Part shown: positions 8,384-56,194 of the stretch, in pieces
How the letters are laid out: every line of letters begins with the position of its first letter
How positions within the stretch are numbered: the stretch's first letter is position 1
Origin: Bacteroidota bacterium
GTDB taxonomy: Bacteria; Bacteroidota; Ignavibacteria; Kapaibacteriales; DASPKH01
NCBI GenBank assembly: GCA_040386315.1
Contig: JAZKFS010000017.1
Location: 19,251 to 83,250, forward strand
Direction: 5' to 3'
DNA: 64,000 nucleotides
Translations under genes and position numbers: made by a program
The notes under the pieces: generated by a model
What the model was told of the DNA's origin: nothing
The model's database searches: none
What the model saw: only the letters and a program-made list of their open reading frames with translations

Positions 8384-8554
8384 AAATTACCTAAACCCCT
8401 TTTAAAAACCAAACTCCTCACCGCCCCAACTCAAACCGCCGCACCTTCGCCCCAAAGCTCTCTTTCGCCGGAGCTTTCCCGCTTTTAAAAACAAAAAGGG
8501 ACAAAGCTTTAAAAAACTCATATCCCTTTCTTTAAATTTACTGTAAAATCACCG

Positions 8555-10482: not shown

Positions 10483-10554
10483 AATTTTAAAAACCAAACC
10501 CCCATCACCGCCTCAACTCAAACCTTCGCTCCAAAGCTCTCTTTTAAAAACAAA

Positions 10555-12399: not shown

Positions 12400-14079
12400 T
12401 CACCGCCCCAACTCAAACCTCCGCACCTTCGCCCCAAAGCTCTCTTTTCCCAACGCTTTCCCGCTTTTAAAAACATACTTTTTAAAAAGCCGCGCTTTGG
12501 CTTCATGCCACGAGAAGCCCCCGAAATTCACCGCCCACCAGAATAGCCCGCGCGCGCCGTGCTGCTCAAAGAGGATATTGTACGACGTCGGGTGCAGCTT
12601 CGGCACCGCCTGCATTACGTCCTGGTACGACCGCCACGTGACCGTATCGCGAAAAATCTCCTCGCCGATATGCCGCGGCACACGATACAGCACGTCCATG
12701 AACATGTTCATCGCGGAGTTCACCGCGCTCGGCTTGTAATGCTTTTTGCCCACGAGGAACGCCGCGAAATTCGCCATGAGCGACACGTGCGGCTCGTACG
12801 CGTTTATCTTTTTTAAAAACCGTTCTTTAAAAAGTCCATCGTCCAGCGCCGTTTTTAAAAGCGTCGTCGTCCGCTCCAGATTCCGCACAAAACTCCCGAA
12901 ACCGCAGTACGTAAGCGGGGAAGACAGCGCCGCCGCATCGCCAAGCGAAATCACATTGTCGCCCGCCGTCCTGCGCACATTGCTCAAACCCGCGTGGAGA
13001 ATGGACGGAATCACGCCAAACGCCGGACGCCCGATGTCAAAATTCTCGTCCGGTTTTTTGTAATCGTGCAGTGTTTTAAAATAGATCTCGTAGAGATTGA
13101 GGAGCGATTTGTCGCGCTCAGAGTTGATTTCATCATAAAAAAACAGGTACGTCACATATTCCGTCCCGCCACTCGGGAAACCTTCCCAAATGAGCTGCCG
13201 CCCCGTTTCGTCCGCGTCGCCGAGCGTCACGAGGATTTCGCCGATGGAATAATCCACTTCATCGCGCGCAGTGCCTTCTTTAAAATTTTTGGAAATCGCG
13301 CCAACCGTCGGGCAGCAATGCGAAAACGGATTTTTTGGATTTAAAAACCGCGCAATCGGCGAAAACGCGCCCATCATATCTATCAGCACACGGCTTTTTA
13401 AAAGCTCCGTTTTTCCCTCGCGCTCAATCTCCGTCACTGCCCATTCGCCATTCGTGTACGCCTTTTTAAAAGCCGCGCCGTCGAGCATTTCGCCGCCCGC
13501 AGCCAGCAGTTTTTCACGCGCCATTTTTAAAAGCTCATTCGCGCTCACGGCCACGTCCAGCACATTTTCAAACCACAGCGGCTCGGCGTGATAGTCCGCA
13601 TTTTCATCAAAAAACTTCACAAAACCGCCGCGATATTTCCGCACGACAATCCGCTGCAACTCATCCTCCGTCAGGAAACCAATCTCCACGAGCCGCCGCA
13701 GCTCCGGCATCGAAATATTCCAGTCGCGATGCGTAATGCCCACCGTAAACCTGTCAAAAACCAGCACCCGCTTTTTAAAAACGTGCGCCATCACCGCCGC
13801 GTGAAGCGTTGCCAGCCCGCCGCCCGCATACACGAGGTCGTATTCCGCCGTTGATTTTTTAAAAACATCATCAGGAATCTTTTTAAAAATCACCTGCTCA
13901 GGTTTCGCCTCAGCGCGCGCCTTCCACGAGGAGTCCAGCGCCACCAGCCGTTCAAACCAGTACGCGCCGTCCTCCAGCACGCGGAAATTCTTCACCGTGA
14001 GCGGATGCGTCGCCTCGTACTTTTTTAAAAGCGATTCGTCGCCGTGCAGGTTTTGTATATCGTGGGAGCAGGTATTCAT
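12400..14079 (-). CDS. FAD-binding oxidoreductase (lycopene-cyclase / geranylgeranyl-reductase-like fold), function unknown
   Basis: DLVYAGGGLATLHAAVM dinucleotide-binding motif about 90 aa from the N-terminus; 559 aa. Confidence 0.45.
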   Translation of the reverse strand: MNTCSHDIQNLHGDESLLKKYEATHPLTVKNFRVLEDGAYWFERLVALDSSWKARAEAKPEQVIFKKIPDDVFKKSTAEYDLVYAGGGLATLHAAVMAHVFKKRVLVFDRFTVGITHRDWNISMPELRRLVEIGFLTEDELQRIVVRKYRGGFVKFFDENADYHAEPLWFENVLDVAVSANELLKMAREKLLAAGGEMLDGAAFKKAYTNGEWAVTEIEREGKTELLKSRVLIDMMGAFSPIARFLNPKNPFSHCCPTVGAISKNFKEGTARDEVDYSIGEILVTLGDADETGRQLIWEGFPSGGTEYVTYLFFYDEINSERDKSLLNLYEIYFKTLHDYKKPDENFDIGRPAFGVIPSILHAGLSNVRRTAGDNVISLGDAAALSSPLTYCGFGSFVRNLERTTTLLKTALDDGLFKERFLKKINAYEPHVSLMANFAAFLVGKKHYKPSAVNSAMNMFMDVLYRVPRHIGEEIFRDTVTWRSYQDVMQAVPKLHPTSYNILFEQHGARGLFWWAVNFGGFSWHEAKARLFKKYVFKSGKALGKESFGAKVRRFELGR

Positions 14080-14175
14080 TTTTTACAAGGATTTTGTCTG
14101 AACTATGATTTTTAGGATTTGAGGATGTTAGGATTTTTCTTTTTAAAAACTTAACTGTCTGAAAATGAATTGGAG

Positions 14176-14289
14176 AATTCCCCTCCTCGGAGGGGTGCCC
14201 GCAGGGCGGGGAGGGTTACGCCAAAAGGACGCGCCATGCCACCGCCGAACCCTCCCCGGCCTATGGCCGCCCCTCCGAGGAGGGGAATT
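14176..14289. repeat. Family-B nested palindromic element (aattcccctcctcggaggggtgccc … gccgcccctccgaggaggggaatt)
   Basis: Terminal 16-bp hairpins cccctcc-NN-ggagggg at both ends plus an inner ggggagggtt/aaccctcccc inverted pair; second copy at 43960-44074. Confidence 0.75.
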
Positions 14290-14300
14290 AATTTTTTAAA

Positions 14301-14430
14301 CCTCATACTGAGCGGCGTCGAAGTATGAGCGCGTCAGAAGTTCGCGTCAGGTTTTTAAAAGCATTGTTAAACTCACCAGACCTGTTGGAAATTTCGTGCT
14401 TCGACGGCGCTCAGCATGAAATTTTGAATG
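14301..14430. repeat. Family-C palindromic element (catactgagcggcgtcgaagtatga … tcgtgcttcgacggcgctcagcatg)
   Basis: About 25-bp inverted arms around a centre containing gcgtcagaag…tttttaaaag; second copy at 48544-48678. Confidence 0.75.
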
Positions 14431-14519
14431 GCTTTTTATAACTGTATCTCGAACCGCAGCCCACGAAGCTCAAAAGCAACATCGCCATCACGAAAATTCG
14501 CATTACAGCACCTTTTAAA

Positions 14520-14568
14520 AAGGGCTTATCGCCATGCAGGTTTTGTATGTCGTGGGAGCAGTTGTTCA
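14520..14568 (-). repeat. Duplicated fragment of the 5' end of gene 12400..14079 (gene remnant)
   Basis: tcgccatgcaggttttgtatgtcgtgggagcagttgttcat matches 14036-14079 with 4 mismatches, i.e. a second copy of MNxCSHDIQNLHGD. Confidence 0.6.
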
Positions 14569-14580
14569 TTCTTTTAAAAA

Positions 14581-15042
14581 TTATTTAACGGCTGGGATTT
14601 CATCACTCCAAAGAATTGATTTTTGGTATTCAGGGTTTGGTCCCCATTCTATCGGATCTTTTGTGTAAAGAATAATCCCGGCTTTCCATGGAAGGTGTGT
14701 AGTTCCATTGTGCACTAAAACTTTAAAAACATTTGGAAGATTCTTAATTCTTGCTGCTGTTGATAGTGAAAAACCATCTTCTCGGTAATCAGTAATTGTC
14801 CATCCTGTATCAAGTCTATATTGGGTTTCAAATTTAGGAAGTGAATCACCCCACCCACCAAACCAAACATCATCGCTATTTTGCGTGTTACGAAGTTCCA
14901 AAATATAAGTCTGTGGCCCGTTCGGTTCTCTATATGTAGAAATATACTTTAGTTCAAGCGGCTTTTTTTCTAGCGGCGAAGTAGTATCATCACAAGCCGT
15001 TATCAGAAATATGGCTATAAAACTAATTATTGCAGTTTTCAT
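14581..15042 (-). CDS. Hypothetical lipoprotein
   Basis: Signal plus lipobox (FLITAC); 153 aa. Confidence 0.5.
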   Translation of the reverse strand: MKTAIISFIAIFLITACDDTTSPLEKKPLELKYISTYREPNGPQTYILELRNTQNSDDVWFGGWGDSLPKFETQYRLDTGWTITDYREDGFSLSTAARIKNLPNVFKVLVHNGTTHLPWKAGIILYTKDPIEWGPNPEYQKSILWSDEIPAVK

Positions 15043-15093: not shown

Positions 15094-15777
15094 TTATTTT
15101 TCAAAACTAAATCCTTCAGTTTTTCCTTCGGTTTTCACAACCGCAAACCGCGCAAATAAGTCCTCGCTGTACCACGCTTCCTCGCGGGTGAGCCGTATGA
15201 CCTCGCGGTGCTTTGGCGACCTGTACGCGAAGTCCTTCACGCTTTCCTCGTCGTGCCAGAAGGAGAGTGTTGCCTGGCGGAAAAGGGGCGCTTCGCCGAT
15301 GCCGATGGAGGCAATTCGCCCGCGCGCTGCATCCAGTTCAGCGCTTGTCTCTGGAACGAACTGCCAGAAGCGCCTGAGCCGCTGCGGCCGTATCGTCGCG
15401 CGCGTGAGCACAGCAACCGGAGTTTTTAAAACGATATTCTTATCAGTTTTAAAAGGTGCAACGCCGTCCCATTTTCCGTGCGCCTGAAATGGCTGCAATT
15501 TCACCGTAAAATATTCATCGGAATGTTGTAAAAACTTTTTAAAAAGGGGAGAGCTTTTAAAAAACTCATCAGCGACAACTTCCGATTCCCACACACAGAG
15601 CAAACCGTAACGCGAGAAATCCGGGCGAATGCTAAAGCCATTGCCGCGCCCCGTGCCGAGCATTTTAAAAAACTCGAGCCCGCGCACCCTTTTTAAAAGC
15701 GGCGGCGCAAAGGCCATTTGCGAAAAAGCCCACGCCTTTTGAAAACCGGAATATGAGAAGAGTGTGAATGTGGTCAT
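15094..15777 (-). CDS. Hypothetical protein (227 aa), possibly a di-ABM/monooxygenase-like fold (speculative)
   Basis: ORF only; no firm motif. Confidence 0.4.
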   Translation of the reverse strand: MTTFTLFSYSGFQKAWAFSQMAFAPPLLKRVRGLEFFKMLGTGRGNGFSIRPDFSRYGLLCVWESEVVADEFFKSSPLFKKFLQHSDEYFTVKLQPFQAHGKWDGVAPFKTDKNIVLKTPVAVLTRATIRPQRLRRFWQFVPETSAELDAARGRIASIGIGEAPLFRQATLSFWHDEESVKDFAYRSPKHREVIRLTREEAWYSEDLFARFAVVKTEGKTEGFSFEK

Positions 15778-15835
15778 ACGTTTTTTAAAAACAAACGTAC
15801 GGAATTTTTGGGTGCGGTGATTTTAAAGAGGTTGT
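15716..15835. repeat. Direct repeat copy 1 (about 100 bp) flanking the WG-repeat gene
   Basis: cgaaaaagccca(c/t)(g/a)ccttttgaaaaccggaatat…gtggtcatacgttttttaaaaacaaacgtacggaat is repeated at 17951-18070. Confidence 0.7.
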
Positions 15836-15848
15836 TTTTTAATCTTCG

Positions 15849-17813
15849 TTAATTGTTATACGGATCCATTATTCCATTCGGGTAATATTGCTGCTGTCTC
15901 CAGAATTGACCGGGATTAATACTGCTTTCAAATTCGTTGCTGTACACGGTTATTTCCTTTTTATCTTTACTGACTTCTTTATCCGGGTTAGCGTATTGTA
16001 ATTCTATACGCAGTTTTGTCTTAAAATCTCCTTCATATACAGGTGTCAGGAATGTCCAGTAATAGTTGGGTTCAAGAGTTAATGTATGATAACTATTACC
16101 GCACCAGCTGCTTGGTAAATATTCAATGTCTTTCCATTCACCCTGTTTGTTTTTTGCCTGAACTTTCATGCTCAGCCGGCTGTCCTGAGCGTTAAAAAGA
16201 ACGTTGTTTTTTGATGTATTGGCAACAAATACTTTTCTTGCTTTAAATAAACTAATCGTATCCTCAGCTTCAGATGAAACAATTAGACTTAATGTATTTT
16301 CGGGGAAAGAGCTCGATTCGGAGATTTCAACCGGAATATTACGTGAATTTCCATGCCCGCCAAGGTCATTTTTATGCGGCTTGGAATACGCATAAAAATA
16401 CCCTCTGTTCATAAAATCTATATTGAGTTTTGAAATCTGTTTTGTTGTGTCAGGTGATTTTTGCCAGACTGTTTTTCCTTCAGTATTGATGTAGGATACC
16501 TTGTTGCCAATCATGCAACGCAATACTCCTTTATAAAAACCGGAAAAATCATATTGTTGCATTACAGGTTGAATTATAATGCTTCCGTCTTTTTTAGCCA
16601 TACCATATAATTTGTCATAATGGCTATTATTGTCAGGATTCCAATCGTAGAAATAGAAATAATCACCTGTCATTCCTCTTTCATCTATTCCTTCAAACCG
16701 GGGCTGGATAATAAAATTTTCATTCGTATCAATCAGCCCATATTTACCATTTTTTTTTACAAAAGCCACTCCATTATTAAATCTTTCACCGAGTACATAA
16801 GAATATACATTATCTGAAATGCGCTTCCCTTTAGTATCAATTATAAAGCGCTCATATTTTTCATTTCTGACAAATGCACGATTGTCAGAAAACTCTTCCG
16901 CATAGGTATAATTTGTATCATCAATTACAATCTCACCAGTGGTATTTATAAAGCCGCTATAGTTTTTAGTTGATGTAGAGAGCACACCCTTTTCTTCAGG
17001 TATCCAGTATTTGTAAAGGTTGATTTTTGCAAGTCCGGAGTGTAGATTACCTTCTATCCAGGTGTGGTTTTTGTGACTTTTTGCGAAAAGCAGTTTGCCC
17101 TGTTTATCAATAAATCCTGTTTGTTTAGTGCTGCCATCTTCTGTATCCCAGGATTCCGCTGGTATATCAACCCGGAAATAACCATTTTCAAAATCATAAA
17201 TATTTTCGTATTTCCCAAACGGAACAATGAACTGACCAAGCGTATCAATTATACCCGCCTCAAAGCTTGCAGGAGTTCCTTTTTTTGTATCAGCATAAGG
17301 ATGATGATTTGCTCCATATACGACAGCCAATCCATCATTAAACGGGTTAATTCTGGAAAAAACAGTATCAATGATAAGCGCACCTTTTTTATCAATATAT
17401 CCGACTTTCCCAGTTTCCGTGTATACTTTGGCCATCCCGTCAACAAAGCTTTCTATAAATGGAAAATCCGTTTCAAACTGCTTTTTGCCTTGTTTATTTA
17501 TAAAAAAAGGTTTACCCTCCAGATAGGCTAATGCCAAACCTTCGCTAAAATATGTTGCGTAGTCAAACTGCGGCTTGATAACGAAATTGCCCGTAGCATC
17601 AATAAATCCATACGTCCCATTAATCCTTGCGCTGGCAAGCCCTTCAGAAAATTCACCTGCACTCAAAAACACGGGCTTAATGACAACTTTGCCTGTTGAA
17701 TCAATAAACCCAATTTTCCCATTTTCAAAAATCTGGAAAAGCCTGATTTCGCTCGTCTGACTTTTACAAGTCGTAAAAATCATGGTGAATAATGCTATGA
17801 TGAGATATTTCAT
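15849..17813 (-). CDS. WG-repeat (KWG-type) containing protein, secreted
   Basis: Many repeats of GKxGFIDxxGxxVIxPxF…A..FSEGLA; signal peptide. Confidence 0.7.
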   Translation of the reverse strand: MKYLIIALFTMIFTTCKSQTSEIRLFQIFENGKIGFIDSTGKVVIKPVFLSAGEFSEGLASARINGTYGFIDATGNFVIKPQFDYATYFSEGLALAYLEGKPFFINKQGKKQFETDFPFIESFVDGMAKVYTETGKVGYIDKKGALIIDTVFSRINPFNDGLAVVYGANHHPYADTKKGTPASFEAGIIDTLGQFIVPFGKYENIYDFENGYFRVDIPAESWDTEDGSTKQTGFIDKQGKLLFAKSHKNHTWIEGNLHSGLAKINLYKYWIPEEKGVLSTSTKNYSGFINTTGEIVIDDTNYTYAEEFSDNRAFVRNEKYERFIIDTKGKRISDNVYSYVLGERFNNGVAFVKKNGKYGLIDTNENFIIQPRFEGIDERGMTGDYFYFYDWNPDNNSHYDKLYGMAKKDGSIIIQPVMQQYDFSGFYKGVLRCMIGNKVSYINTEGKTVWQKSPDTTKQISKLNIDFMNRGYFYAYSKPHKNDLGGHGNSRNIPVEISESSSFPENTLSLIVSSEAEDTISLFKARKVFVANTSKNNVLFNAQDSRLSMKVQAKNKQGEWKDIEYLPSSWCGNSYHTLTLEPNYYWTFLTPVYEGDFKTKLRIELQYANPDKEVSKDKKEITVYSNEFESSINPGQFWRQQQYYPNGIMDPYNN

Positions 17814-17950
17814 ATTTTGGGTAGATTTAGGAATTTTAAAAACAGAATTTCCTTGTCCTGATTTTATTAAATATAGAACGAAAATCCGTAATAAAAAATA
17901 TTCCTGACCAACAGAAAGTTGAATTCTTTTAAAACTTTAATGCTTTAAAG

Positions 17951-18070
17951 TACCTGCGAAAAAGCCCATACCTTTTGAAAACCGGAATATCGGAAGAGTG
18001 TGAATGTGGTCATACGTTTTTTAAAAACAAACGTACGGAATCTTTTGATAGGGTTAATTTAAAAAAAAAA
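17951..18070. repeat. Direct repeat copy 2 (duplicate of the 5' end and upstream region of gene 15094..15777)
   Basis: Near-identical to 15716-15835. Confidence 0.7.
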
Positions 18071-18124
18071 CCGTTTTTTAAAACTCCTGTTTTTAAAAAA
18101 TTCGCGACGCATTTCTTTTAAAAA

Positions 18125-18160
18125 CAAAAAAGGGATCTGTTTTTACAACAGATCCTTTTT
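18125..18160. terminator. Bidirectional terminator-like hairpin aaaaaagggatctgtt…aacagatcctttttt
   Basis: Perfect inverted repeat with A-run and T-run flanks, downstream of the multicopper oxidase gene. Confidence 0.6.
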
Positions 18161-18221
18161 TGTTTTAGTTTTTCTTTAGTATTCTACTCTCTCTCGTGCT
18201 TTTATTAAATTTTTTCAGCCG

Positions 18222-20060
18222 CTAATTCAAGTTAAGCTTTTGCACATAACGATGTTTTTCGGAAGTAAATACAACGATGACAACGCCTTTTGGCAGATGT
18301 TGAAGCGGAATTGCGGAATTGCCCAAAGACGTAATATCGAGCTGCTGTAGCAGGCGGCCATTCAGATCGTAAAAGCTCAATTGTCCGGGTTTAGTAAATT
18401 CGCTATTAAAAGTAAGCTGATCTTTGGCCTGGTTAAGGAATACCGTAAGTTGCTCTGTATCAGGTTCTGACAAAATCCCTGTGAAAAAATCTACGGAATC
18501 CACTACTACAAACTGGTGCATCATACTTGTATCTTCGTGAGGAAGAATATGGCAATGATACATATAGCTTTCCTCGGCCATCAATGGGCTTGGGAAGAAA
18601 TCGAAACGTGCTTCAAAGACCATGGTGGCGTTGGCACGGATGAGCTGTACGTCCTTATACCCGATTAGTTCATCCGGCAAATTTGGATACGTATATGTCT
18701 TGACCGTCGTATCGGTCCCCATCATACCCTTATATTCTACTATCTGAAATTGTACTTTGTGAATGTGGAAGGGATGCGCATTACCTGTCTCGTTGATAAT
18801 GGTCCAGCGTTCTTTTGTATTGACCAGAACGGTGTCATTGATCATCATCATATCCATTGGAATGCTGTCAATTGTCCACATGGTGCCGTGCCCGCTACTC
18901 TGTCCGGAACCGCCCATGAGGCGTTTTGTCCGCTCTTTGAATACAGGGCCGGGAGCAAGCGAGTATGATGGTAATAGCGTAGCAGGAATCGAAGTGACCG
19001 GATCAGCGGACGAGAGAGAATGATCCACTACAAAAGCCATCAAAGCATTGCCGGGAGTTGTGCCATAATTGGCATCAGCCGGTACTGGGAGGTTGCTCAT
19101 ATAAACAGTATCACCATTTGCATAGACAGAGAAGTCTATTACAAACTCCCGGCGGTCTCCGGTTGACATGAGCGTGGTCTTTACCTGACGGGGTTTGTCA
19201 ATGTAGCCGCCGCCGGTAGCTATCATGTTCATATCAGCAAAAGTAGTTGGATTTTTAAACTGGGTTGATAATCCGATATTAAACATTTTGCGGGCTGAGC
19301 CATTTAAGATTCTCAAACGTATCATTTCCGGGGCTACGCGCAAAACACCACCCACGACACCGTTAATGAGTGTATATGGACCATTCCCCGGTTTACCGCC
19401 GGCCTGTATAGCAATTGCCGTAGGCGGTTTCGTAGTGGTATCCAATACAAATCCCTTATCCTGAATGACGATAGGGAAATCATTTACACCATAGCTGTGC
19501 GGTAAAAGTTTTTCTAATGGGTCAGTTGTATCCTGCACAATGATCAGCCCGGCTAAACCCCGTACTACCTGATCAGTTGTCTGGTCCATCAGGTGAGTGT
19601 GATACCAGACTGTTTGTGCATTATCAATGAGAGTAAAGTCAGGAGTCCAGTTGCCACCATTGAGAATTATCTCATGCGGCCCTCCGTCCATCATAGCAGG
19701 TATATTGAGGCCGTGCCAATGCACTGTAGTATTTATACCAGATGGAAGATTGTTTTTAAAATTAAAATCAAGCTCTGCCCCTTTATTGAAGATAAGAGTA
19801 GGGCCGAGGTAAGTCATGCCATTTTTTCCCGACTGATTGTAGCAGTAAGCAGGAAGCGAAACGTTGAGATTAATGTCTGTTTGAAAGCCATTCGGATCAA
19901 AGTTGTGCGTGGCACTACCAATATCAATCGCAAAAGAATTTCCTGTCATCAGGTAGGGAGTCGGTATAGGGTTGCGGAAATTCTGTGCATTACTGCCCGA
20001 AGTCATAGAGAATAGTACTGCAAGACATAGCAGATGCATTAAGTAAAAATTTTTCTTCAT
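18222..20060 (-). CDS. Multicopper oxidase (laccase-like) with T9SS C-terminal sorting domain
   Basis: Copper-ligand motifs TVHWHG and HCHILPHED…MM; signal peptide; C-terminal about 80 aa resemble a Por secretion tail. Confidence 0.85.
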   Translation of the reverse strand: MKKNFYLMHLLCLAVLFSMTSGSNAQNFRNPIPTPYLMTGNSFAIDIGSATHNFDPNGFQTDINLNVSLPAYCYNQSGKNGMTYLGPTLIFNKGAELDFNFKNNLPSGINTTVHWHGLNIPAMMDGGPHEIILNGGNWTPDFTLIDNAQTVWYHTHLMDQTTDQVVRGLAGLIIVQDTTDPLEKLLPHSYGVNDFPIVIQDKGFVLDTTTKPPTAIAIQAGGKPGNGPYTLINGVVGGVLRVAPEMIRLRILNGSARKMFNIGLSTQFKNPTTFADMNMIATGGGYIDKPRQVKTTLMSTGDRREFVIDFSVYANGDTVYMSNLPVPADANYGTTPGNALMAFVVDHSLSSADPVTSIPATLLPSYSLAPGPVFKERTKRLMGGSGQSSGHGTMWTIDSIPMDMMMINDTVLVNTKERWTIINETGNAHPFHIHKVQFQIVEYKGMMGTDTTVKTYTYPNLPDELIGYKDVQLIRANATMVFEARFDFFPSPLMAEESYMYHCHILPHEDTSMMHQFVVVDSVDFFTGILSEPDTEQLTVFLNQAKDQLTFNSEFTKPGQLSFYDLNGRLLQQLDITSLGNSAIPLQHLPKGVVIVVFTSEKHRYVQKLNLN

Positions 20061-20383
20061 AAAAATTGCTCCTGGTGAATGTGATGAATGGAAAATACAT
20101 TACATTTCTATCGATTGATAAAAGCATAAATTCTATTAAAATGTAACTTAACTTAGATAAATATTCCGATTTTACCAAAAAAAGAATGTATTGAAATGTG
20201 TAATGCGGTACCGATATCCGGTATAACCGGGAACTCCCCGTAAGTAGGCACCTCTAACCCTTTATGCTTCATATGTATATCAGCAAGGGATCAATCAAAG
20301 CGATCCAAAGCCCGACGGATAAAATCACCTTTTAAAAAACAAAAAAGCCGGGGTTCTTTTTAAAAAACTTCCGGCTTTAAAAA

Positions 20384-20977
20384 CTACGGCGTTACCTTCC
20401 CATATTTTAAATGCACGATTTTCGGTTTATCAGCATGCAAACTTGCAATAAACAAATTATCATACTGGCTTTCCGCGATCTGCACGACGAACGAATTATT
20501 GCTGAAGCTTTTTAAAAGCTCGGGAATCGTATTTGAGTGCCCGACGACAACTGCTGTTTTGCCCTTGTTTTCAGCTTTTACCTTATTGGCTAATTGAGCA
20601 GCGGAAATATTGGCGTCGTATTCAATTGCTGTAAGGCCTTTGCTTTCGGCGAGTTGCGTTATGGTTTGGCGCGTGCGGTTGAAAGGTGTTGTGTAGATAT
20701 TACTGACGGTGACATTGCTGAGAATGCGGGTAAGTTCTTGCGCGCGGAGCTGTCCGTCAGCGTTTAAAATTGGATCAGCGCCTTGTGAGTCTTTCTCGGC
20801 GTGGCGAAGGAGAATTACTGTTGTCAGCGTATCGTCAATTATATTTGGGATTGAAACTGTATCGTGGATTGTAATAGTTACGGTATCACGCTCAATCACA
20901 GTATTTGTAACAGTTTCCGTGCAGGAAGCTGTGAAAATGGAAAATACGATAAGAAGTGCAGGAATAATGATGTGCAT
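20384..20977 (-). CDS. Histidine phosphatase (phosphoglycerate-mutase-like) family protein, secreted
   Basis: RHG motif (VILLRHAEKD), later GHSNT; signal peptide. Confidence 0.7.
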   Translation of the reverse strand: MHIIIPALLIVFSIFTASCTETVTNTVIERDTVTITIHDTVSIPNIIDDTLTTVILLRHAEKDSQGADPILNADGQLRAQELTRILSNVTVSNIYTTPFNRTRQTITQLAESKGLTAIEYDANISAAQLANKVKAENKGKTAVVVGHSNTIPELLKSFSNNSFVVQIAESQYDNLFIASLHADKPKIVHLKYGKVTP

Positions 20978-21370: not shown

Positions 21371-21473
21371 TGAAATTGGACGAGTAACATTTACTTTTTA
21401 AAAACAAAAAAGCCGAAGTCTTTTTTAAAGATCTCGGCTTTATAAATATCCTGAAAATTTACCCTTTTATAAT

Positions 21474-22103: not shown

Positions 22104-22232
22104 AGAGTTTAAAGTATTGAAATGAACTTAACTTAGTACCAGTTTATAAAATTAACGACAATCAGGTCAAAAAACAAAAAGCCATAGTTTTTTAAAAACT
22201 ACGGCTTTAAAAATAATTTCTTTTAAAAACTA

Positions 22233-43959: not shown

Positions 43960-44074
43960 AATTCCCCTCCTCGGAGGGGTGCCCATCGGGTGGGGAGGGT
44001 TCCCGCGAAAGAAGGGCGTGATAGCTGACGCAAACCCTCCCCGGCTTGCAGCCGCCCCTCCGAGGAGGGGAATT
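43960..44074. repeat. Family-B nested palindromic element, copy 2, inserted between the GNAT gene and argG
   Basis: Same termini as 14176-14289. Confidence 0.75.
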
Positions 44075-48543: not shown

Positions 48544-48678
48544 CTTCATACTGAGCCCCGTCGAAGTATGAAGACGTCAGAAGATCGCGGTAGTTTTTAA
48601 AAGGTTCGTTGTCTTCATTGAACCTGTGTGGAAATTTCGTACTTCGACAGGCTCAGTATGAAATTTTGGAATTGTTTT
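48544..48678. repeat. Family-C palindromic element, copy 2, inserted between argF' and argB
   Basis: Same arms as 14301-14430. Confidence 0.75.
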
Positions 48679-50594: not shown

Positions 50595-51859
50595 ATGAAA
50601 CTCTGGCAAAAAGAAACGTCGGCTGCAAATGATTTCGCTGCAATAATCGAAGAATTCACCGTCGGGAAAGACCGAGAACTTGACCTTTTGCTTGCAGAAC
50701 ACGACGTGATTGGTTCACTCGCGCACACGCAAATGCTGGAGAGTATTGGCCTGCTGACAAGCGCAGAATTGACAGAAATCCACCGCGAACTGAACGCAAT
50801 TTTAAAAGAAATCCGTGCGGGAAATTTTAATTTATGCTCACGCAGCGCATCGGCGACGTGGGCAAAAAAATCCACAGCGGACGTTCGCGCAATGACCAGG
50901 TTTTACTTGATATAAAGCTGTTTTTGCGCGCCGCGCTTTTAAAAATGTCGCAGGAAATTAATGCACTGTTTTTAAAACTTTTGGAATTAAGCGAAGCGCA
51001 CAAAGACGCGCTGCTGCCGGGTTACACGCATTTCCAGATCGCAATGCCGTCGTCGTTTGGGCTGTGGTTTGGCGCGTATGCCGAGGGCCTGGTGGACGAT
51101 ATGGAATTCGTGCAGGCGGCGTATAATATATGCGACAAAAACCCGCTCGGTTCCGGCGCGGGCTACGGTTCGTCCTTCCCACTGAACCGCGAAATGACGA
51201 CGGAGCTGATGTCTTTTAAAAGCATGAATCACAACGTCGTGTATGCGCAAATGACGCGCGGCAAAAGCGAAAAATCCGTTGCCATGGCGCTCTCATCCGT
51301 TGCCGCGACGCTTTCAAAATTTGCGTACGACGTGTGCCTGTACATGAGCCAGAACTTCGGTTTTATCACGTTCCCAGACGAACTCACGACCGGCTCCAGC
51401 ATCATGCCGCACAAAAAAAATCCCGATGTTTTCGAGCTCATCCGCGCAAAATGCAACCGCATCCAGGCGCTGCCGAACGAGCTCACGCTGCTCATCAACA
51501 ACCTGCCCAGCGGCTACCACCGCGACATGCAGCTCACAAAAGAAATCCTCTTTCCCGCACTTGCCGATATGCACGCGTGCCTGCGCGTCGCCGAATTTAT
51601 GCTCCGCCACATAATCGTGAAAAATGACATCCTCAGCGACGAAAAATACGCGCATCTTTTCAGCGTCGAGCGCGTGAACGAGCTGGTTTTAAAAGGCACC
51701 CCATTCCGCGACGCCTACCGCATAGTTGGGCAGGAAATCGCCGACGGCACTTTTAAAACGCAACCCACCGTCAACCACACGCACACCGGCAGCATCGGTA
51801 ATTTGGGCAACGATCAGATCAAAAAATCAATGGAAAAATTCGCCCATCTCACAAAGTAA
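50595..51859 (+). pseudogene. argH: Argininosuccinate lyase disrupted by an internal deletion/frameshift (ORFs 50595..50915 and 50834..51859)
   Basis: N-terminal ORF matches the ArgH start (MKLWQKE…LAHTQMLESIGLL…). The second ORF carries GKKIHSGRSRNDQV and the fumarate-lyase signature (GSSIMPHKKNPD). About 12-14 residues expected before …LTQRIGDVG are missing and the frame shifts. Confidence 0.8.
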
Positions 51860-53764: not shown

Positions 53765-55903
53765 ATGGCGAAAAAAAATGAAAAACCCGCAACTGATAAT
53801 AAGAAAGTTCGCGATTTGGCGGTCAATACTGAGGAGAGTTCAGGCGAATTCCTAACAACGAATCAGGGCGTGCGCATTAATGACAACCAGAATTCTTTAA
53901 AAGCTGGCGAGCGCGGCCCAACGCTGCTGGAAGATTTTATTTTCCGTGAGAAAATGACGCATTTCGACCACGAGCGTATTCCGGAGCGTATTGTTCATGC
54001 GCGTGGTGCGGCGGCGCACGGATTTTTCCAGGTGTATGAGTCTATGGCAAAATACACGAAAGCGGGATTTCTGCAAGACCCATCTTTAAAAACACCTGTT
54101 TTTGTGCGGTTCTCGACTGTTGCGGGTTCGCGCGGCTCAACTGATTTGGCTCGCGATGCGCGTGGTTTTGCTGTGAAATTTTATACCGAAGAAGGAAATT
54201 ATGATCTTGTGGGAAATAATATCCCGGTCTTTTTTATCCAGGATGCGATGAAATTTCCCGACCTTGTTCATGCTGTAAAACCCGAGCCGCATAATGAAAT
54301 TCCGCAGGCGGCGGCGGCGCACGATACATTCTGGGATTTTATTTCGCTTATGCCCGAGTCTATGCACATGATCTTCTGGGCGATGAGCGACCGTGCTATT
54401 CCGCGCAGCTACCGCATGATGGAGGGTTTTGGCGTTCACACGTTCCGATTCATCAATGAGGAAGGCAAAGGCCGTTTTGTAAAATTCCACTGGAAGCCGC
54501 TTTTGGGTGTGCATTCAGTCATGTGGGACGAAGCGACACGTATTTCCGGCAAAGACCCTGATTTCCACCGTCGCGACCTGTGGGAAGCAATTGAAAATGG
54601 CGATTTTCCTGAATATGAGCTGGGCGTGCAAATCGTGGAGGAAGATGACGAGCACAAGTTTGAATTCGACCTGCTCGACCCGACGAAAATCATTCCCGAA
54701 GAGCTCGTTCCTGTGCAGCGCATCGGCAAAATGACGCTGAATCGCAATCCGGACAACTTTTTTGCTGAAACTGAGCAGGTTGCATATCATCCCGGACACG
54801 TCGTTCCCGGTATTGATTTTACGAATGACCCGCTCTTGCAGGGACGGCTATTTTCCTATGTAGATACGCAGCTGAAGCGCCTCGGCGGGCCAAACTTCCA
54901 TGAAATTCCTATCAACCGTCCTGTAGCGCCAGTGCATAATAACCAGCGCGACGGCCACATGCGCCAGACAATCAATAAAGGCAAAACTGCATACGACCCG
55001 AACACAATTTCAAGCGGCTGCCCGTTCCAAGCGAAAGCGGCGCAGGGCGGTTTCGTGAGCCATACAGAACGAATTGACGCGCAGAAAATCCGTGCCCGTA
55101 GCGATAGTTTCCGCGACCATTTCAGCCAGGCGACGCTTTTTTATAACAGCCAAGCGGAACATGAAAAAAATCATATCGTAGACGCTTTTAGCTTTGAGCT
55201 AGGCAAGGTGGAATCTGTAGAAATCCGCCAGCGTATGATTGGATTAATTTCACAGGTGGATAAAGCCCTGGCGAAAAAAGTTGCGGATAAGCTCGGGCTG
55301 GATGTTTTAAAACCGGAAGAGCCAATGAACCGTTCATTCGGCGCCGATACCGACCCGAAATCTGTTCAGCCGGTAAAAGCAAAATCTTCGATTAAAGAAT
55401 CTGCCGCGTTGAGTATGGACAATACGAAAAAAGATTCCATCAAAACACGGAAAGTCGCTGCGCTGATCGCTGATGGCTTCAACGGCGACGAACTGAACGC
55501 AATGAAAAAAGCTTTAAAAGCAGAAGGCGCAATGCTGAAAACCGTTGCAACGCGGCTCGGCATGATAAAAAGCGCAAGCGGAGAAGAAGTAAAAGCCGAT
55601 TTTAGCTTTTTCACAACGGCTTCTGTTTTATTTGATGCAGTGTACGTGCCGGGCGGCGCTAAAAGCATCACGGCTTTAAAAGGCGAAGCCGACGCGTATC
55701 ATTTCGTTGACGAAGCTTTTAAACATTGCAAAGCGATCGCTGCAACAAGCGAAGGCGCAGACTTTATCGCTGATACATTTGCCGGAAAAGCAAAAGATGA
55801 TAAAGCGGTCATTATAGGAAAAAACATCGAAAAAGATTTTATAAAAGCAATTGCTCAGCATCGCAATTGGGAACGCGAAAAAGCGAGAAAAATCCCGGCG
55901 TAG
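53765..55903 (+). CDS. katE: Large-subunit catalase HPII with C-terminal DJ-1/PfpI-like domain
   Basis: FDHERIPERIVHARGAAAHGFF catalase signature, heme-pocket motifs, 712 aa. Confidence 0.9.
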   Translation: MAKKNEKPATDNKKVRDLAVNTEESSGEFLTTNQGVRINDNQNSLKAGERGPTLLEDFIFREKMTHFDHERIPERIVHARGAAAHGFFQVYESMAKYTKAGFLQDPSLKTPVFVRFSTVAGSRGSTDLARDARGFAVKFYTEEGNYDLVGNNIPVFFIQDAMKFPDLVHAVKPEPHNEIPQAAAAHDTFWDFISLMPESMHMIFWAMSDRAIPRSYRMMEGFGVHTFRFINEEGKGRFVKFHWKPLLGVHSVMWDEATRISGKDPDFHRRDLWEAIENGDFPEYELGVQIVEEDDEHKFEFDLLDPTKIIPEELVPVQRIGKMTLNRNPDNFFAETEQVAYHPGHVVPGIDFTNDPLLQGRLFSYVDTQLKRLGGPNFHEIPINRPVAPVHNNQRDGHMRQTINKGKTAYDPNTISSGCPFQAKAAQGGFVSHTERIDAQKIRARSDSFRDHFSQATLFYNSQAEHEKNHIVDAFSFELGKVESVEIRQRMIGLISQVDKALAKKVADKLGLDVLKPEEPMNRSFGADTDPKSVQPVKAKSSIKESAALSMDNTKKDSIKTRKVAALIADGFNGDELNAMKKALKAEGAMLKTVATRLGMIKSASGEEVKADFSFFTTASVLFDAVYVPGGAKSITALKGEADAYHFVDEAFKHCKAIAATSEGADFIADTFAGKAKDDKAVIIGKNIEKDFIKAIAQHRNWEREKARKIPA

Positions 55904-55926
55904 TTTTTAAAAGAAATTAGTTTTTA

Positions 55927-55965
55927 AAAAGGTCAGTCTTTTAAAAAAGGGCTGGCCTTTTTTGT
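55927..55965 (+). terminator. Terminator-like hairpin (aaggtcag…ctggcctt) plus T-run after katE
   Basis: 8-bp stem with one G·U pair, then ttttttgttttt. Confidence 0.5.
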
Positions 55966-56194
55966 TTTTAGAAGGTTCTAAGTAATCGCTTTTTTTGTAT
56001 TTACCCCGGATATATCTTCTGCATTTCTCGCATTCCTGCTAGATCTTCTCCCAAATCGCGATGTAAAAAACTATCTTCTTTTTTAAAAACTCATGAGTAT
56101 TTTTTGAGTAAGGTGAGCACGAAGTAATCCCTATACTTTTGCATGAAAGAAAGACGGCTTTTAAAACCTTTTTAAAAAGTAACGGAGAGAATGT

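What the first reader, a model, noticed from the sequence alone, without database searches (positions are those of the whole stretch)
14020..14580. Back-to-back family-B and family-C palindromic elements bracketed by a duplicated gene 5' end
Immediately upstream of gene 12400..14079 lie a family-B element (14176-14289) and a family-C element (14301-14430). Both are highly structured nested inverted repeats. Beyond them a 40-60-bp stretch repeats the start of the gene (the MNxCSHDIQNLHGD coding sequence and its RBS-proximal sequence) at 14505-14568 versus 14020-14079. This looks like a composite insertion that duplicated or displaced the gene start, or a very long target duplication. The same B and C elements recur separately inside the arginine operon.
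Basis: seen in the sequence. Interest (0 to 1): 0.6.

Follow-up and report, generated by a model that had tools for sequence, protein, structure and literature searches.

The report
Palindromic mini-elements beside a duplicated gene start
Upstream of a carotenoid gene in a Bacteroidota genome lie two unrelated small hairpin-forming repeat elements and a decayed copy of the gene's first 60 bases. One element looks like the gene-less form of a small endonuclease-carrying element, while the duplication probably comes from a separate event.

Summary
B (14176-14289) and C (14303-14435) are strongly structured inverted-repeat doublets. Each has a second copy in the arg operon (43960-44074; 48546-48678). 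The first ~60 nt of cruA (14019-14088) recur at 14510-14579 (83%).

B and C are independent, non-autonomous REPIN/MITE-like elements built from hairpin modules found across bacterial phyla. In 5 Bacteroidota loci where both flanks are readable, a ~125-aa DUF559 (Vsr-like nuclease) gene is flanked by B-type arms in B's own orientation; 3 more loci show one flank. B is therefore most likely the ORF-less form of such an element. No parent was found for C.

The duplication is probably not their target duplication:
- It does not abut either element.
- The other B and C copies lack it.
- Both copies derive from native sequence.
- A second 109-nt duplication of a gene start, 1.7 kb away, brackets an unrelated low-GC gene and no B or C.

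A long target duplication bounded by TTTTAAAA is not excluded. That octamer occurs 276 times in the window. I file this as a new variant of a known kind, of moderate interest. The mobilising enzyme, genome-wide copy numbers and close-range empty sites are untested.

The parts
12400..14079 (-). cruA, a CruA-type lycopene cyclase gene (559 aa); the gene whose start is duplicated
   Evidence: ORF. Homologues are named lycopene cyclase CruA by their sources. The best hit is 92% identical; the next is 56%. The gene holds 12 TTTTAAAA sites, all conserved in relative L001.
14019..14088 (-). Real copy of the duplicated segment: cruA codons 1-20 plus about 9 nt upstream. It is bounded by TTTTAAAA (14023-14030) and a degenerate TTTTTACAA (14080-14088).
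14080..14175 (-). 96-nt AT-rich spacer between B and the cruA ATG. It carries four ATCCT direct repeats on the minus strand and is the probable cruA 5' UTR and promoter region (inferred).
   Evidence: Sequence. No exact Bacteroidetes-type TAnnTTTG box was found; there is only TAAGTTTT at 14153.
14176..14289 (.). B1, an inverted doublet. Each arm is AATT + hairpin CCCCTCC-TC-GGAGGGG + a small variable hairpin + GGGGAGGGTT. The spacer is 30 nt.
   Evidence: The same termini and orientation flank DUF559 genes in other Bacteroidota.
14290..14302 (.). 13-nt T-rich linker (AATTTTTTAAACC) between B1 and C1
14303..14435 (.). C1, an inverted doublet. Each arm is a small stem-loop with conserved loop GAGC-N3-GTCGA. 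The core contains CGCGTCAG twice and a central TTTTAAAA. The right tail AAATTTTG is conserved.
   Evidence: Compensatory changes between arms are seen across 3 copies.
14436..14509 (-). 74-nt segment which, on the minus strand, reads as a lipoprotein-type signal peptide (MRIFVMAMLLLSFVGC). It is a possible remnant of an inserted gene.
   Evidence: Translation of ORF 14411-14569. The lipobox reading is my inference. No family match was found.
14510..14579 (-). Pseudo-copy of the cruA start (MNNCSHDIQNLHGDKPFLKG), bounded by TTTTAAAA at 14513 and 14572
   Evidence: It is 88.7% identical to relative L001 over 62 nt.
14411..14569 (-). 52-aa chimeric ORF: the pseudo start fused to the signal-peptide-like stretch, with its stop codon inside C1
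   Evidence: No family match.
14581..15042 (-). Low-GC (0.37), TTTTAAAA-free 153-aa putative lipoprotein gene. It lies immediately beyond the pseudo-copy and is probably a recent acquisition.
43960..44074 (.). B2, in the GNAT-argG spacer of the arg operon
   Evidence: This spacer is 186 nt here, against 119 nt in Lacibacter and 15 nt in a Bacteroidota MAG.
48546..48678 (.). C2, in the argF'-argB spacer of the arg operon
   Evidence: This spacer is 203 nt here. The homologous Lacibacter position holds a DUF559 gene.
15719..15827 (-). Real copy of a second gene-start duplication: the crtA-like gene's first 58 nt plus 50 nt upstream, including a TAcgTTTG -7-type box
17955..18063 (-). Pseudo-copy of the crtA-like start (22-aa ORF 17945-18013). 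It lies upstream of the low-GC WG-repeat gene 15849-17813.

Best explanation
The cruA upstream spacer holds three separate things.

(1) B is an ORF-less miniature of a small element whose full form is AATT-hairpin-GGGGTGGGTT, then a ~125-aa DUF559 (Vsr-like PD-(D/E)xK nuclease) gene, then AACCCACCCC-hairpin-AATT. B keeps both termini in the same orientation but has only a 30-nt spacer between them.

(2) C is an unrelated inverted doublet of small stem-loops with a conserved GAGC-N3-GTCGA loop. It is REPIN-like, and its parent is unknown.

Both are non-autonomous. They are presumably moved or copied in trans by a nuclease or transposase encoded elsewhere, acting on their hairpin or cruciform ends. 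They settle in short intergenic spacers. There the hairpins may act as terminator or insulator, or as an mRNA-stability structure. These last three points are inferred.

(3) The 62-71-nt pseudo-copy of the cruA start is a relic of a different event. New DNA was placed in the 5' end of cruA while a local duplication, bounded by TTTTAAAA, kept an intact start. A lipoprotein-signal fragment may be what remains of that DNA. The same kind of event 1.7 kb away left a 109-nt duplication around a WG-repeat gene.

Shown: the anatomy, the copies, conserved structure with variable sequence, the DUF559 flank architecture, and the native origin of both duplicated copies.

Inferred: mobility, the enzyme, the order of events, and any regulatory effect.
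For: Structure and copies:
- Searches give the arms, second copies, fold z-scores and consensus structures.
- B's outer arms are identical between copies, while the 30-nt spacer is unrelated.
- C's arms differ between three copies but stay complementary: GTA/TAC in one, GGC/GCC in another.

Spread of the modules:
- The B-arm 20-mer occurs in more than 117 stretches from Bacteroidota, Gammaproteobacteria, Acidobacteriota, Cyanobacteria, Firmicutes and Ignavibacteriae.
- 12 of 14 variable inserts between GGAGGGG and GGGGTGG fold as hairpins better than 95% or more of their shuffles.
- The C-arm loop is closed by a covarying stem. Positions 2-4 pair in 21, 19 and 17 of 21 cases, above all 1000 shuffles.
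- B-type and C-type modules also sit about 100 nt apart in Agitococcus.

DUF559 link:
- DUF559 was the top recurrent family next to B-arms.
- 8 loci have a DUF559 homologue ending at the motif.
- Where both flanks are readable (5 loci), both are B-type arms in B's orientation.

Insertion into spacers: the same arg-operon spacers are 15-119 nt and 20 nt in relatives, against 186 and 203 nt here.

Duplication separate from B and C:
- The other copies lack a comparable flanking duplication.
- The second 109-nt duplication contains no B or C.
- The relative L124 has different genes between the same conserved flanks.
- Real and pseudo copies each share states with relatives.
Against: - Only two copies each of B and C are seen in 64 kb, plus one C elsewhere. 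Genome-wide copy number is unknown.
- No DUF559, Y1 (RAYT) or other transposase gene is in the window.
- There is no close-range empty site for the cruA spacer. The 92% relative's contig ends 66 nt upstream of cruA.
- The duplicated unit starts and ends at TTTTAAAA in both copies. C3 and B2 also have 15-27-nt TTTTAAAA-containing flank repeats. A TTTTAAAA-targeted insertion with a variable-length target duplication would give this pattern, so the one-event reading is not excluded.
- The DUF559-flanked elements could instead be endonuclease genes that invaded pre-existing doublets. In that case B would be an uninvaded site, not a deletion derivative.
- The DUF559 loci came from a scan that required the B-arm 20-mer, so the association rate is only a rough enrichment.
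Confidence: 0.55

Rival explanations
1. One composite insertion with a very long target duplication. A block containing B, C and the flanking ~170 nt entered the 5' end of cruA by staggered cuts at two neighbouring TTTTAAAA sites. Fill-in then duplicated the 59-70 nt between them.
For: - All four ends of the repeat coincide with TTTTAAAA or a one-mismatch version.
- C3 is flanked by a 25-27-nt repeat holding two such motifs (z 7.6). B2 is flanked by AGTCAA[T/C]TTTTAAAA (z 4.0).
- The window/relative homology upstream of the crtA-like gene also breaks at a TTTTAAAA.
Against: - TTTTAAAA occurs every ~93 nt in intergenic DNA, so proximity is weak evidence.
- The downstream breakpoint of the 109-nt duplication is not at the motif.
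- B and C are separate families elsewhere.
- The B2 and C2 flank repeats are short or distant.
- No enzyme is known or found here.
Confidence: 0.2
2. The two copies are attL and attR of a decayed integrative element that targeted the 5' end of cruA and carried a replacement gene start.
For: - Imperfect direct repeats bracket non-native DNA.
- Low-GC, TTTTAAAA-free genes lie alongside.
Against: - There is no integrase or recombinase anywhere nearby.
- The bracketed DNA is only 421 nt.
- Both copies look native, not foreign: the pseudo-copy is closer to the relative at 3 sites, the real copy at the others.
Confidence: 0.07
3. B and C are resident regulatory structures of these spacers (terminators, attenuators or a structured leader). 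They would not be mobile DNA, and the pseudo-start would be a decoy or upstream ORF.
For: - B1 scores as a terminator-like hairpin with T-runs on both strands.
- All copies are intergenic.
Against: - The same elements occur at unrelated loci with conserved arms and free spacers.
- The arg spacers of relatives lack them.
- B2 has no T-run.
- There is no Rfam family match.
Confidence: 0.08
4. Assembly artefact of a metagenome-assembled genome.
For: The source is a MAG.
Against: - The copies are only 83% identical, and the longest exact run is 14 nt. Assemblers do not create diverged repeats.
- The relative's contigs break at repeats as expected, not through them.
Confidence: 0.03

Closest known systems
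REPINs (inverted REP doublets mobilised by RAYT / TnpA-REP Y1 transposases)
   Same: - Two short palindromic units in inverted orientation with a free spacer form one long hairpin.
- The elements are extragenic and occur in several copies.
- The arms are conserved and the spacer is variable.
- REP families are documented in several phyla, and TnpA-REP subclasses are abundant in Bacteroidetes and Cyanobacteria (papers read).
   Different: - There is no GTAG or CGTC tag.
- No RAYT gene was seen.
- B's arms flank a DUF559 nuclease gene in other genomes, not a Y1 transposase gene.
- The identical 20-mer arm is shared across phyla, whereas REPINs are described as mostly lineage-specific and vertically inherited (abstracts listed).
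MITEs (ORF-less derivatives of insertion sequences)
   Same: B has the termini and orientation of a longer ORF-carrying element, with a short unrelated interior.
   Different: - The putative parent encodes a ~125-aa PD-(D/E)xK (DUF559) protein, not a known transposase.
- No clear target-site duplication is seen. AATT could be either target or terminus.
Free-standing or intron-borne homing endonucleases of the Vsr-like fold (I-Bth0305I type; listed in the same PD-(D/E)xK clade as DUF559 in PMC3424549)
   Same: A small nuclease gene that appears in intergenic spacers of conserved operons. One example sits between argF' and argB in Lacibacter.
   Different: - Homing endonuclease genes are not known to be bounded by ~35-nt hairpin inverted repeats or to leave ORF-less doublets.
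- No cleavage activity was tested here.
HIP1 (GCGATCGC) of cyanobacteria, as a comparison for the TTTTAAAA background
   Same: - An 8-nt palindrome roughly 100-fold over-represented.
- It is present inside genes and between them.
- Sites are conserved between relatives (HIP1 papers listed).
   Different: - The sequence and the phylum both differ.
- Neither the HIP paper I searched nor the full-text search mentions TTTTAAAA.

Membership tests
REPIN | Two REP-like palindromic units in inverted orientation, separated by a short spacer, able to form one long hairpin | tested here: met
   B has 42-nt arms and a 30-nt spacer. C has ~28-31-nt arms and a 65-nt core.
REPIN | Associated RAYT (Y1 HUH transposase) gene, typically flanked by the same REPs | tested here: not met
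   No Y1_Tnp match among the ~50 window ORFs I scanned, nor in the output shown for the 150 ORFs next to B-arms in other genomes (that output lists only the 25 families that most members match). The rest of the source genome could not be searched.
REPIN | High copy number within one genome (tens to hundreds) | not testable with these tools
   Only 2 copies each in 64 kb. The source genome was not among the retrieved loci. In Pontibacter mangrovi the B-arm 20-mer occurs in at least 9 separate stretches of a truncated scan.
GTAG/CGTC-tagged REPs | Conserved unpaired GTAG or CGTC tetranucleotide at one end of the stem-loop | tested here: not met
   B has neither tag. C1 and C2 contain CGTC in the loop, but other family members have AGTC or TGTC there.
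MITE | Terminal inverted repeats shared with an ORF-carrying parent element | tested here: met
   For B, DUF559 genes are flanked by the same arms in the same orientation in the 5 loci where both flanks are readable (L098, L047, L010; L028; L023, where the downstream arm is in the ORF's last codons). For C, no parent was found.
MITE | Short target-site duplication directly flanking the element | tested here: inconclusive
   AATT lies at both ends of B and of the DUF559 elements. It cannot be told apart from the terminus. No direct flanking repeat was found for C1 or C2.
Transposon target-site duplication (for the cruA repeat) | Duplication directly abuts the inserted element and has a fixed short length | tested here: not met
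   The repeat is 62-71 nt. It lies 87 nt from B and 74 nt from C, and it is absent around the other copies.
Integrative element att sites (for the cruA repeat) | Integrase or recombinase within the bracketed DNA, and a foreign-derived copy of the gene end | tested here: not met
   No recombinase is present. Both copies are native-like.
Known RNA families (Rfam) | Match at the gathering score | tested here: not met
   No match in the window at the gathering threshold. Only generic long-hairpin (miRNA-type) matches appear far below threshold.

The most novel reading that the evidence does not exclude
Two linked readings are not excluded.

(a) B-type doublets and the DUF559 genes they flank form a previously undescribed class of small mobile element. 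It would be driven by a Vsr-like PD-(D/E)xK nuclease acting on hairpin termini. It would have spread across bacterial phyla with near-identical ends and would leave ORF-less miniatures such as B.

(b) In this lineage the hyper-abundant TTTTAAAA palindrome would be the cutting or joining site for DNA insertion. It would give variable-length target duplications (15-109 nt) that preserve gene starts, as at cruA and the crtA-like gene.
Probability: 0.25. Interest if true: 0.75.

Novelty: new variant of a known kind. Interest (0 to 1): 0.5.

Why it matters
Small palindromic repeats are usually linked to Y1 transposases or treated as lineage-specific. Here one such element shares its exact termini with DUF559 nuclease genes in many Bacteroidota, and its arm recurs in at least six phyla. 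This gives a concrete, testable candidate for what makes and moves a widespread class of intergenic hairpins.

The locus also shows how a gene can survive insertion into its own 5' end. A short duplication of the start preserves it, and at the neighbouring gene the duplication includes the promoter. All this happens in a genome with a HIP1-like octamer that no paper in the searched library describes. That combination could be used to study how iterated palindromes relate to recombination.

If the plain reading holds, this is ordinary intergenic repeat clutter with a useful annotation lesson. The 52-aa and 22-aa ORFs are pseudo-starts, not genes.

Tried and rejected
- **Rfam.** The gathering and permissive thresholds gave nothing beyond generic hairpin hits.
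- **Exact look-ups.** Look-ups of cruA, argG and the 100%-identical CrtA-like protein found no source contig.
- **ArgG search.** It found no relative above 83%, so there is no close empty site for B2 or C2. Only distant synteny could be compared.
- **Literature.** Full-text search for the arm sequences found no relevant paper. Searches on REPIN/RAYT, DUF559 and HIP gave context only.
- **Parent of C.** I tested a recalled link to small GIY-YIG or '23S rRNA IVP' genes. ORFs near C-type motifs showed nothing relevant, and the Lacibacter IVP gene has different flanks. I dropped this lead.
- **Wider duplication.** Homology ends after 71 nt, so this is rejected.
- **Other apparent repeats.** The direct repeats at 20329/21394 and 22167/55972 are terminator-like hairpins with TTTTAAAA in them, not duplications.
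- **C-like module in L001.** A C-internal-like 19-mer upstream of cruA in L001 is too weak (E 1.1) to show that C is ancestral there.
- **Promoters.** The sigma-70 scan was uninformative for a Bacteroidota genome.
Full report
**Observation**

The region reads as described.
- B is an inverted repeat with 42-nt arms (14176-14217 and 14248-14289, 88% complementary) and a 30-nt spacer.
- C has arms at 14298-14328 and 14394-14424. By homology it spans 14303-14435.
- A self-BLAST of the window finds one further copy of each: B at 43960-44074 (80%, E 9e-22) and C at 48546-48678 (79%, E 2e-24).
- The arm cores are far above chance: 8 matches against 0.05 expected for B, and 3 against 0 for C.
- Folded as single strands, the elements have z-scores of -8.5 and -6.6 (B) and -4.3 and -6.1 (C) against shuffles.
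- The start of gene 12400-14079 recurs upstream: 14019-14088 versus 14510-14579, 83% over 71 nt, E 1e-13. The flank-versus-flank z-score is 26.6.

**Context**

- The gene is a CruA-type lycopene cyclase.
- Its upstream neighbour 15094-15777 is a CrtA-like spheroidene-monooxygenase homologue.
- ArgG is 81-83% identical to Chitinophagaceae proteins. The CrtA-like protein is 100% identical to a protein of an NCBI 'Bacteroidota bacterium' MAG. The source is therefore a Bacteroidota MAG without close sequenced relatives.
- None of the roughly 50 ORFs I scanned (most ORFs of 70 aa or more) matches a transposase, recombinase or DUF559 family.
- Rfam has no match.

**What B is**

The two B copies share identical outer arms, while the 30-nt centre is unrelated. 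The consensus fold is an outer 21-bp stem, an inner 10-bp stem (GGGGAGGGTT/AACCCTCCCC) and a small hairpin in each arm.

The hits cover many Pontibacter, Rufibacter and Adhaeribacter, plus Agitococcus/Moraxellaceae, Terriglobia, Chamaesiphon, Oscillospiraceae and Ignavibacteriae.

The general module is a hairpin CCCCTCC-NN-GGAGGGG, an optional variable insert, then GGGG[T/A]GGG. Of 14 inserts, 12 fold as hairpins better than at least 95% of their shuffles, although their sequences differ. So structure is conserved while sequence is not.

Scanning 150 ORFs next to the motif gave DUF559 (PF04480, a Vsr-like PD-(D/E)xK domain) as the top recurrent family. tblastn then found a DUF559 homologue ending at the motif in 8 loci.

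Five of these loci show both flanks: L098, L047 and L010, L028 and L023 (where the downstream arm is translated as the last residues of the ORF). The other three show only the downstream arm. The architecture is:

AATT-hairpin-GGGGTGGGTT, then 10-25 nt, then the ORF, then AACCCACCCC-hairpin-AATT.

These are B's own termini in B's own orientation. I therefore read B as the ORF-less form of such an element. The alternative is that DUF559 genes invade pre-existing doublets. That is not excluded.

DUF559 shares a PD-(D/E)xK clade with Vsr and with a group I intron homing endonuclease (PMC3424549). Of the 25 papers in the library that mention DUF559, none appears from its title or abstract to describe such a flanked element; I opened only one of them.

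**What C is**

Each arm is a small stem-loop, TCATACT-GAGCNNNGTCGA-AGTATGA. The loop GAGC-N2-4-GTCGA also occurs in Agitococcus, Moraxellaceae and Chitinophaga loci, closed by different stems. Stem positions 2-4 pair in 21, 19 and 17 of 21 cases, above every one of 1000 partner shuffles, with 3-5 pair types.

A metagenome scan found a third full C copy on contig MWVZ01014375.1 (locus L123). It comes from a TTTTAAAA-rich relative and sits in yet another spacer. Across the three copies the variable loop triplets differ but stay matched between the two arms, and two pairs show compensatory changes. No ORF-carrying parent was found.

B-type and C-type modules also lie about 100 nt apart in an Agitococcus locus. 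The back-to-back placement here is therefore not unique, and it need not mean a single element.

**Insertion into spacers**

Gene order in the arg operon is the same in Lacibacter cauensis. Its GNAT-argG spacer is 119 nt, against 15 nt in another Bacteroidota MAG. Its argF'-argB gap is 20 nt, followed by a DUF559 gene fused to argB. The window has 186 nt and 203 nt at these positions, of which B2 and C2 account for 115 and 133 nt. This fits insertion, but only across a large evolutionary distance.

**The duplicated gene start**

Several results bear on whether it belongs to B and C.
- Homology is limited to 62-71 nt and is bounded on both sides, in both copies, by TTTTAAAA or a one-mismatch form.
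- Against the 92% relative L001, the real copy differs at 3 of 62 positions and the pseudo-copy at 7. At those 3 positions the pseudo-copy keeps the relative's state. Both copies therefore descend from the native gene start, not from a foreign att-type sequence.
- The repeat does not abut B or C, and B2, C2 and C3 lack anything comparable.
- A second case lies 1.7 kb away. 15719-15827 holds the first 58 nt of the crtA-like gene plus 50 nt upstream, including a TAcgTTTG box of the Bacteroidetes -7 type. It recurs at 17955-18063 (90%). The pair brackets the low-GC, TTTTAAAA-free WG-repeat gene 15849-17813.
- In relative L124 the crtA-like gene and a His_Phos_1 gene are conserved, but different genes lie between them. 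Homology upstream of the crtA-like gene stops at a TTTTAAAA about 50 nt before the ATG.

So this neighbourhood exchanges gene cassettes, and gene-start duplications mark two such events. In the cruA case the pseudo-start runs in frame into a lipoprotein-type signal (MRIFVMAMLLLSFVGC) and stops inside C. I read that signal as a remnant of an inserted gene, by analogy with the WG-repeat gene, which also begins with a lipoprotein-type signal. That step is inference.

**What remains open**

The repeat ends coincide with TTTTAAAA. C3 is flanked by a 25-27-nt repeat containing two such motifs (z 7.6), and B2 by a 15-nt one (z 4.0). Both fit a model in which insertions use neighbouring TTTTAAAA sites and duplicate what lies between them.

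Against that, the motif occurs every ~93 nt between genes, and one breakpoint of the 109-nt repeat is not at the motif. I give this rival a probability of 0.2.

An att-site remnant, a resident regulatory structure and an assembly artefact are each unlikely, for the reasons given under the rival explanations.

**Comparison with known kinds**

B and C work like REPINs or MITEs: inverted palindromic units, a free centre, and an intergenic location. They fail two REPIN features that I could test, namely a RAYT gene nearby and a GTAG or CGTC tag (papers). B's putative parent encodes a DUF559 nuclease, not a transposase of a known family. I therefore file the finding as a new variant of a known kind.

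**Verdict**

Interest is 0.5.

Noticed in passing
whole window, e.g. 14023, 14141, 14353, 14513, 14572: The palindrome TTTTAAAA occurs 276 times in 64 kb, against 12 for AAAATTTT and about 3 expected by chance. The density is 3.0 per kb in genes, only in the two frames that avoid a stop, and 10.7 per kb between genes. All 12 sites in cruA are conserved in a relative that is 92% identical. More distant CruA loci have none. Low-GC genes lack the motif. It resembles HIP1 of cyanobacteria, and I found no description of it in the searched library.
   Followed up: partly
15719-15827 and 17955-18063: A second gene-start duplication (109 nt, 90%) carries the crtA-like gene's -7-type box, ATG and 19 codons. 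It brackets the low-GC WG-repeat gene and leaves a 22-aa pseudo-ORF at 17945-18013.
   Followed up: yes
15691-15698 and 17927-17934: Unexplained: in both copies of the 109-nt duplication a TTTTAAAA lies exactly 20 nt beyond the breakpoint, yet the 20 nt in between are unrelated (2 of 19 identical).
   Followed up: no
10505-10545, about 8400-8493, and 12400-12448: Decayed copies of the cruA 3' end precede two of the three tandem SBBP/T9SS-tail paralogues. The duplicated unit therefore started inside cruA's last codons. The C-terminal sorting-domain ends of the three paralogues are 92-96% identical while the rest is 65-80%, which suggests gene conversion.
   Followed up: partly
It is a 105-nt inverted doublet with arms CTGTCATTCCGG-loop-CCGGAATC, plus a solo arm that is 100% identical over 26 nt.
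   Followed up: partly
50595-50828 and 50831-51859: argH is split. Residues 1-75 are in one frame and residue ~90 onward in another, with about 14 residues missing. This is either a frameshifted pseudogene or a sequence error in the MAG.
   Followed up: partly
L121 11660-12240 and 14168-14560 (Lacibacter cauensis arg operon): A DUF559 gene sits between argF' and argB, the position homologous to C2. It is fused to argB and flanked by inverted CCCC-TGAA-GGGG hairpin modules that lie inside the coding ends of argF' and argB. A '23S rRNA IVP' gene with its own inverted flanks sits between argE and argH.
   Followed up: partly
20329-20383, 21394-21446, 22167-22232, 55901-55972: Terminator-like hairpins of the form AAAAAAGCC...GGCTTT that carry TTTTTAAAAA in or next to the loop. 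They resemble each other at 82% without being duplications.
   Followed up: partly
L001 1-66: In the 92% relative, the 66 nt upstream of cruA hold a GTAG-tagged palindrome (GTAGGGACATGCCACGGCATGTCC on the other strand). This is a canonical REP form, also seen in Pontibacter composite repeats, and the contig ends there. No such REP is in the window.
   Followed up: partly
L124 523-2917 versus window 15778-20977: Between the conserved His_Phos_1 and crtA-like genes, the relative has Lactamase_B, HTH_3 and DUF2199 genes. The window instead has a multicopper oxidase and the WG-repeat gene. This is a gene-content hot spot.
   Followed up: partly
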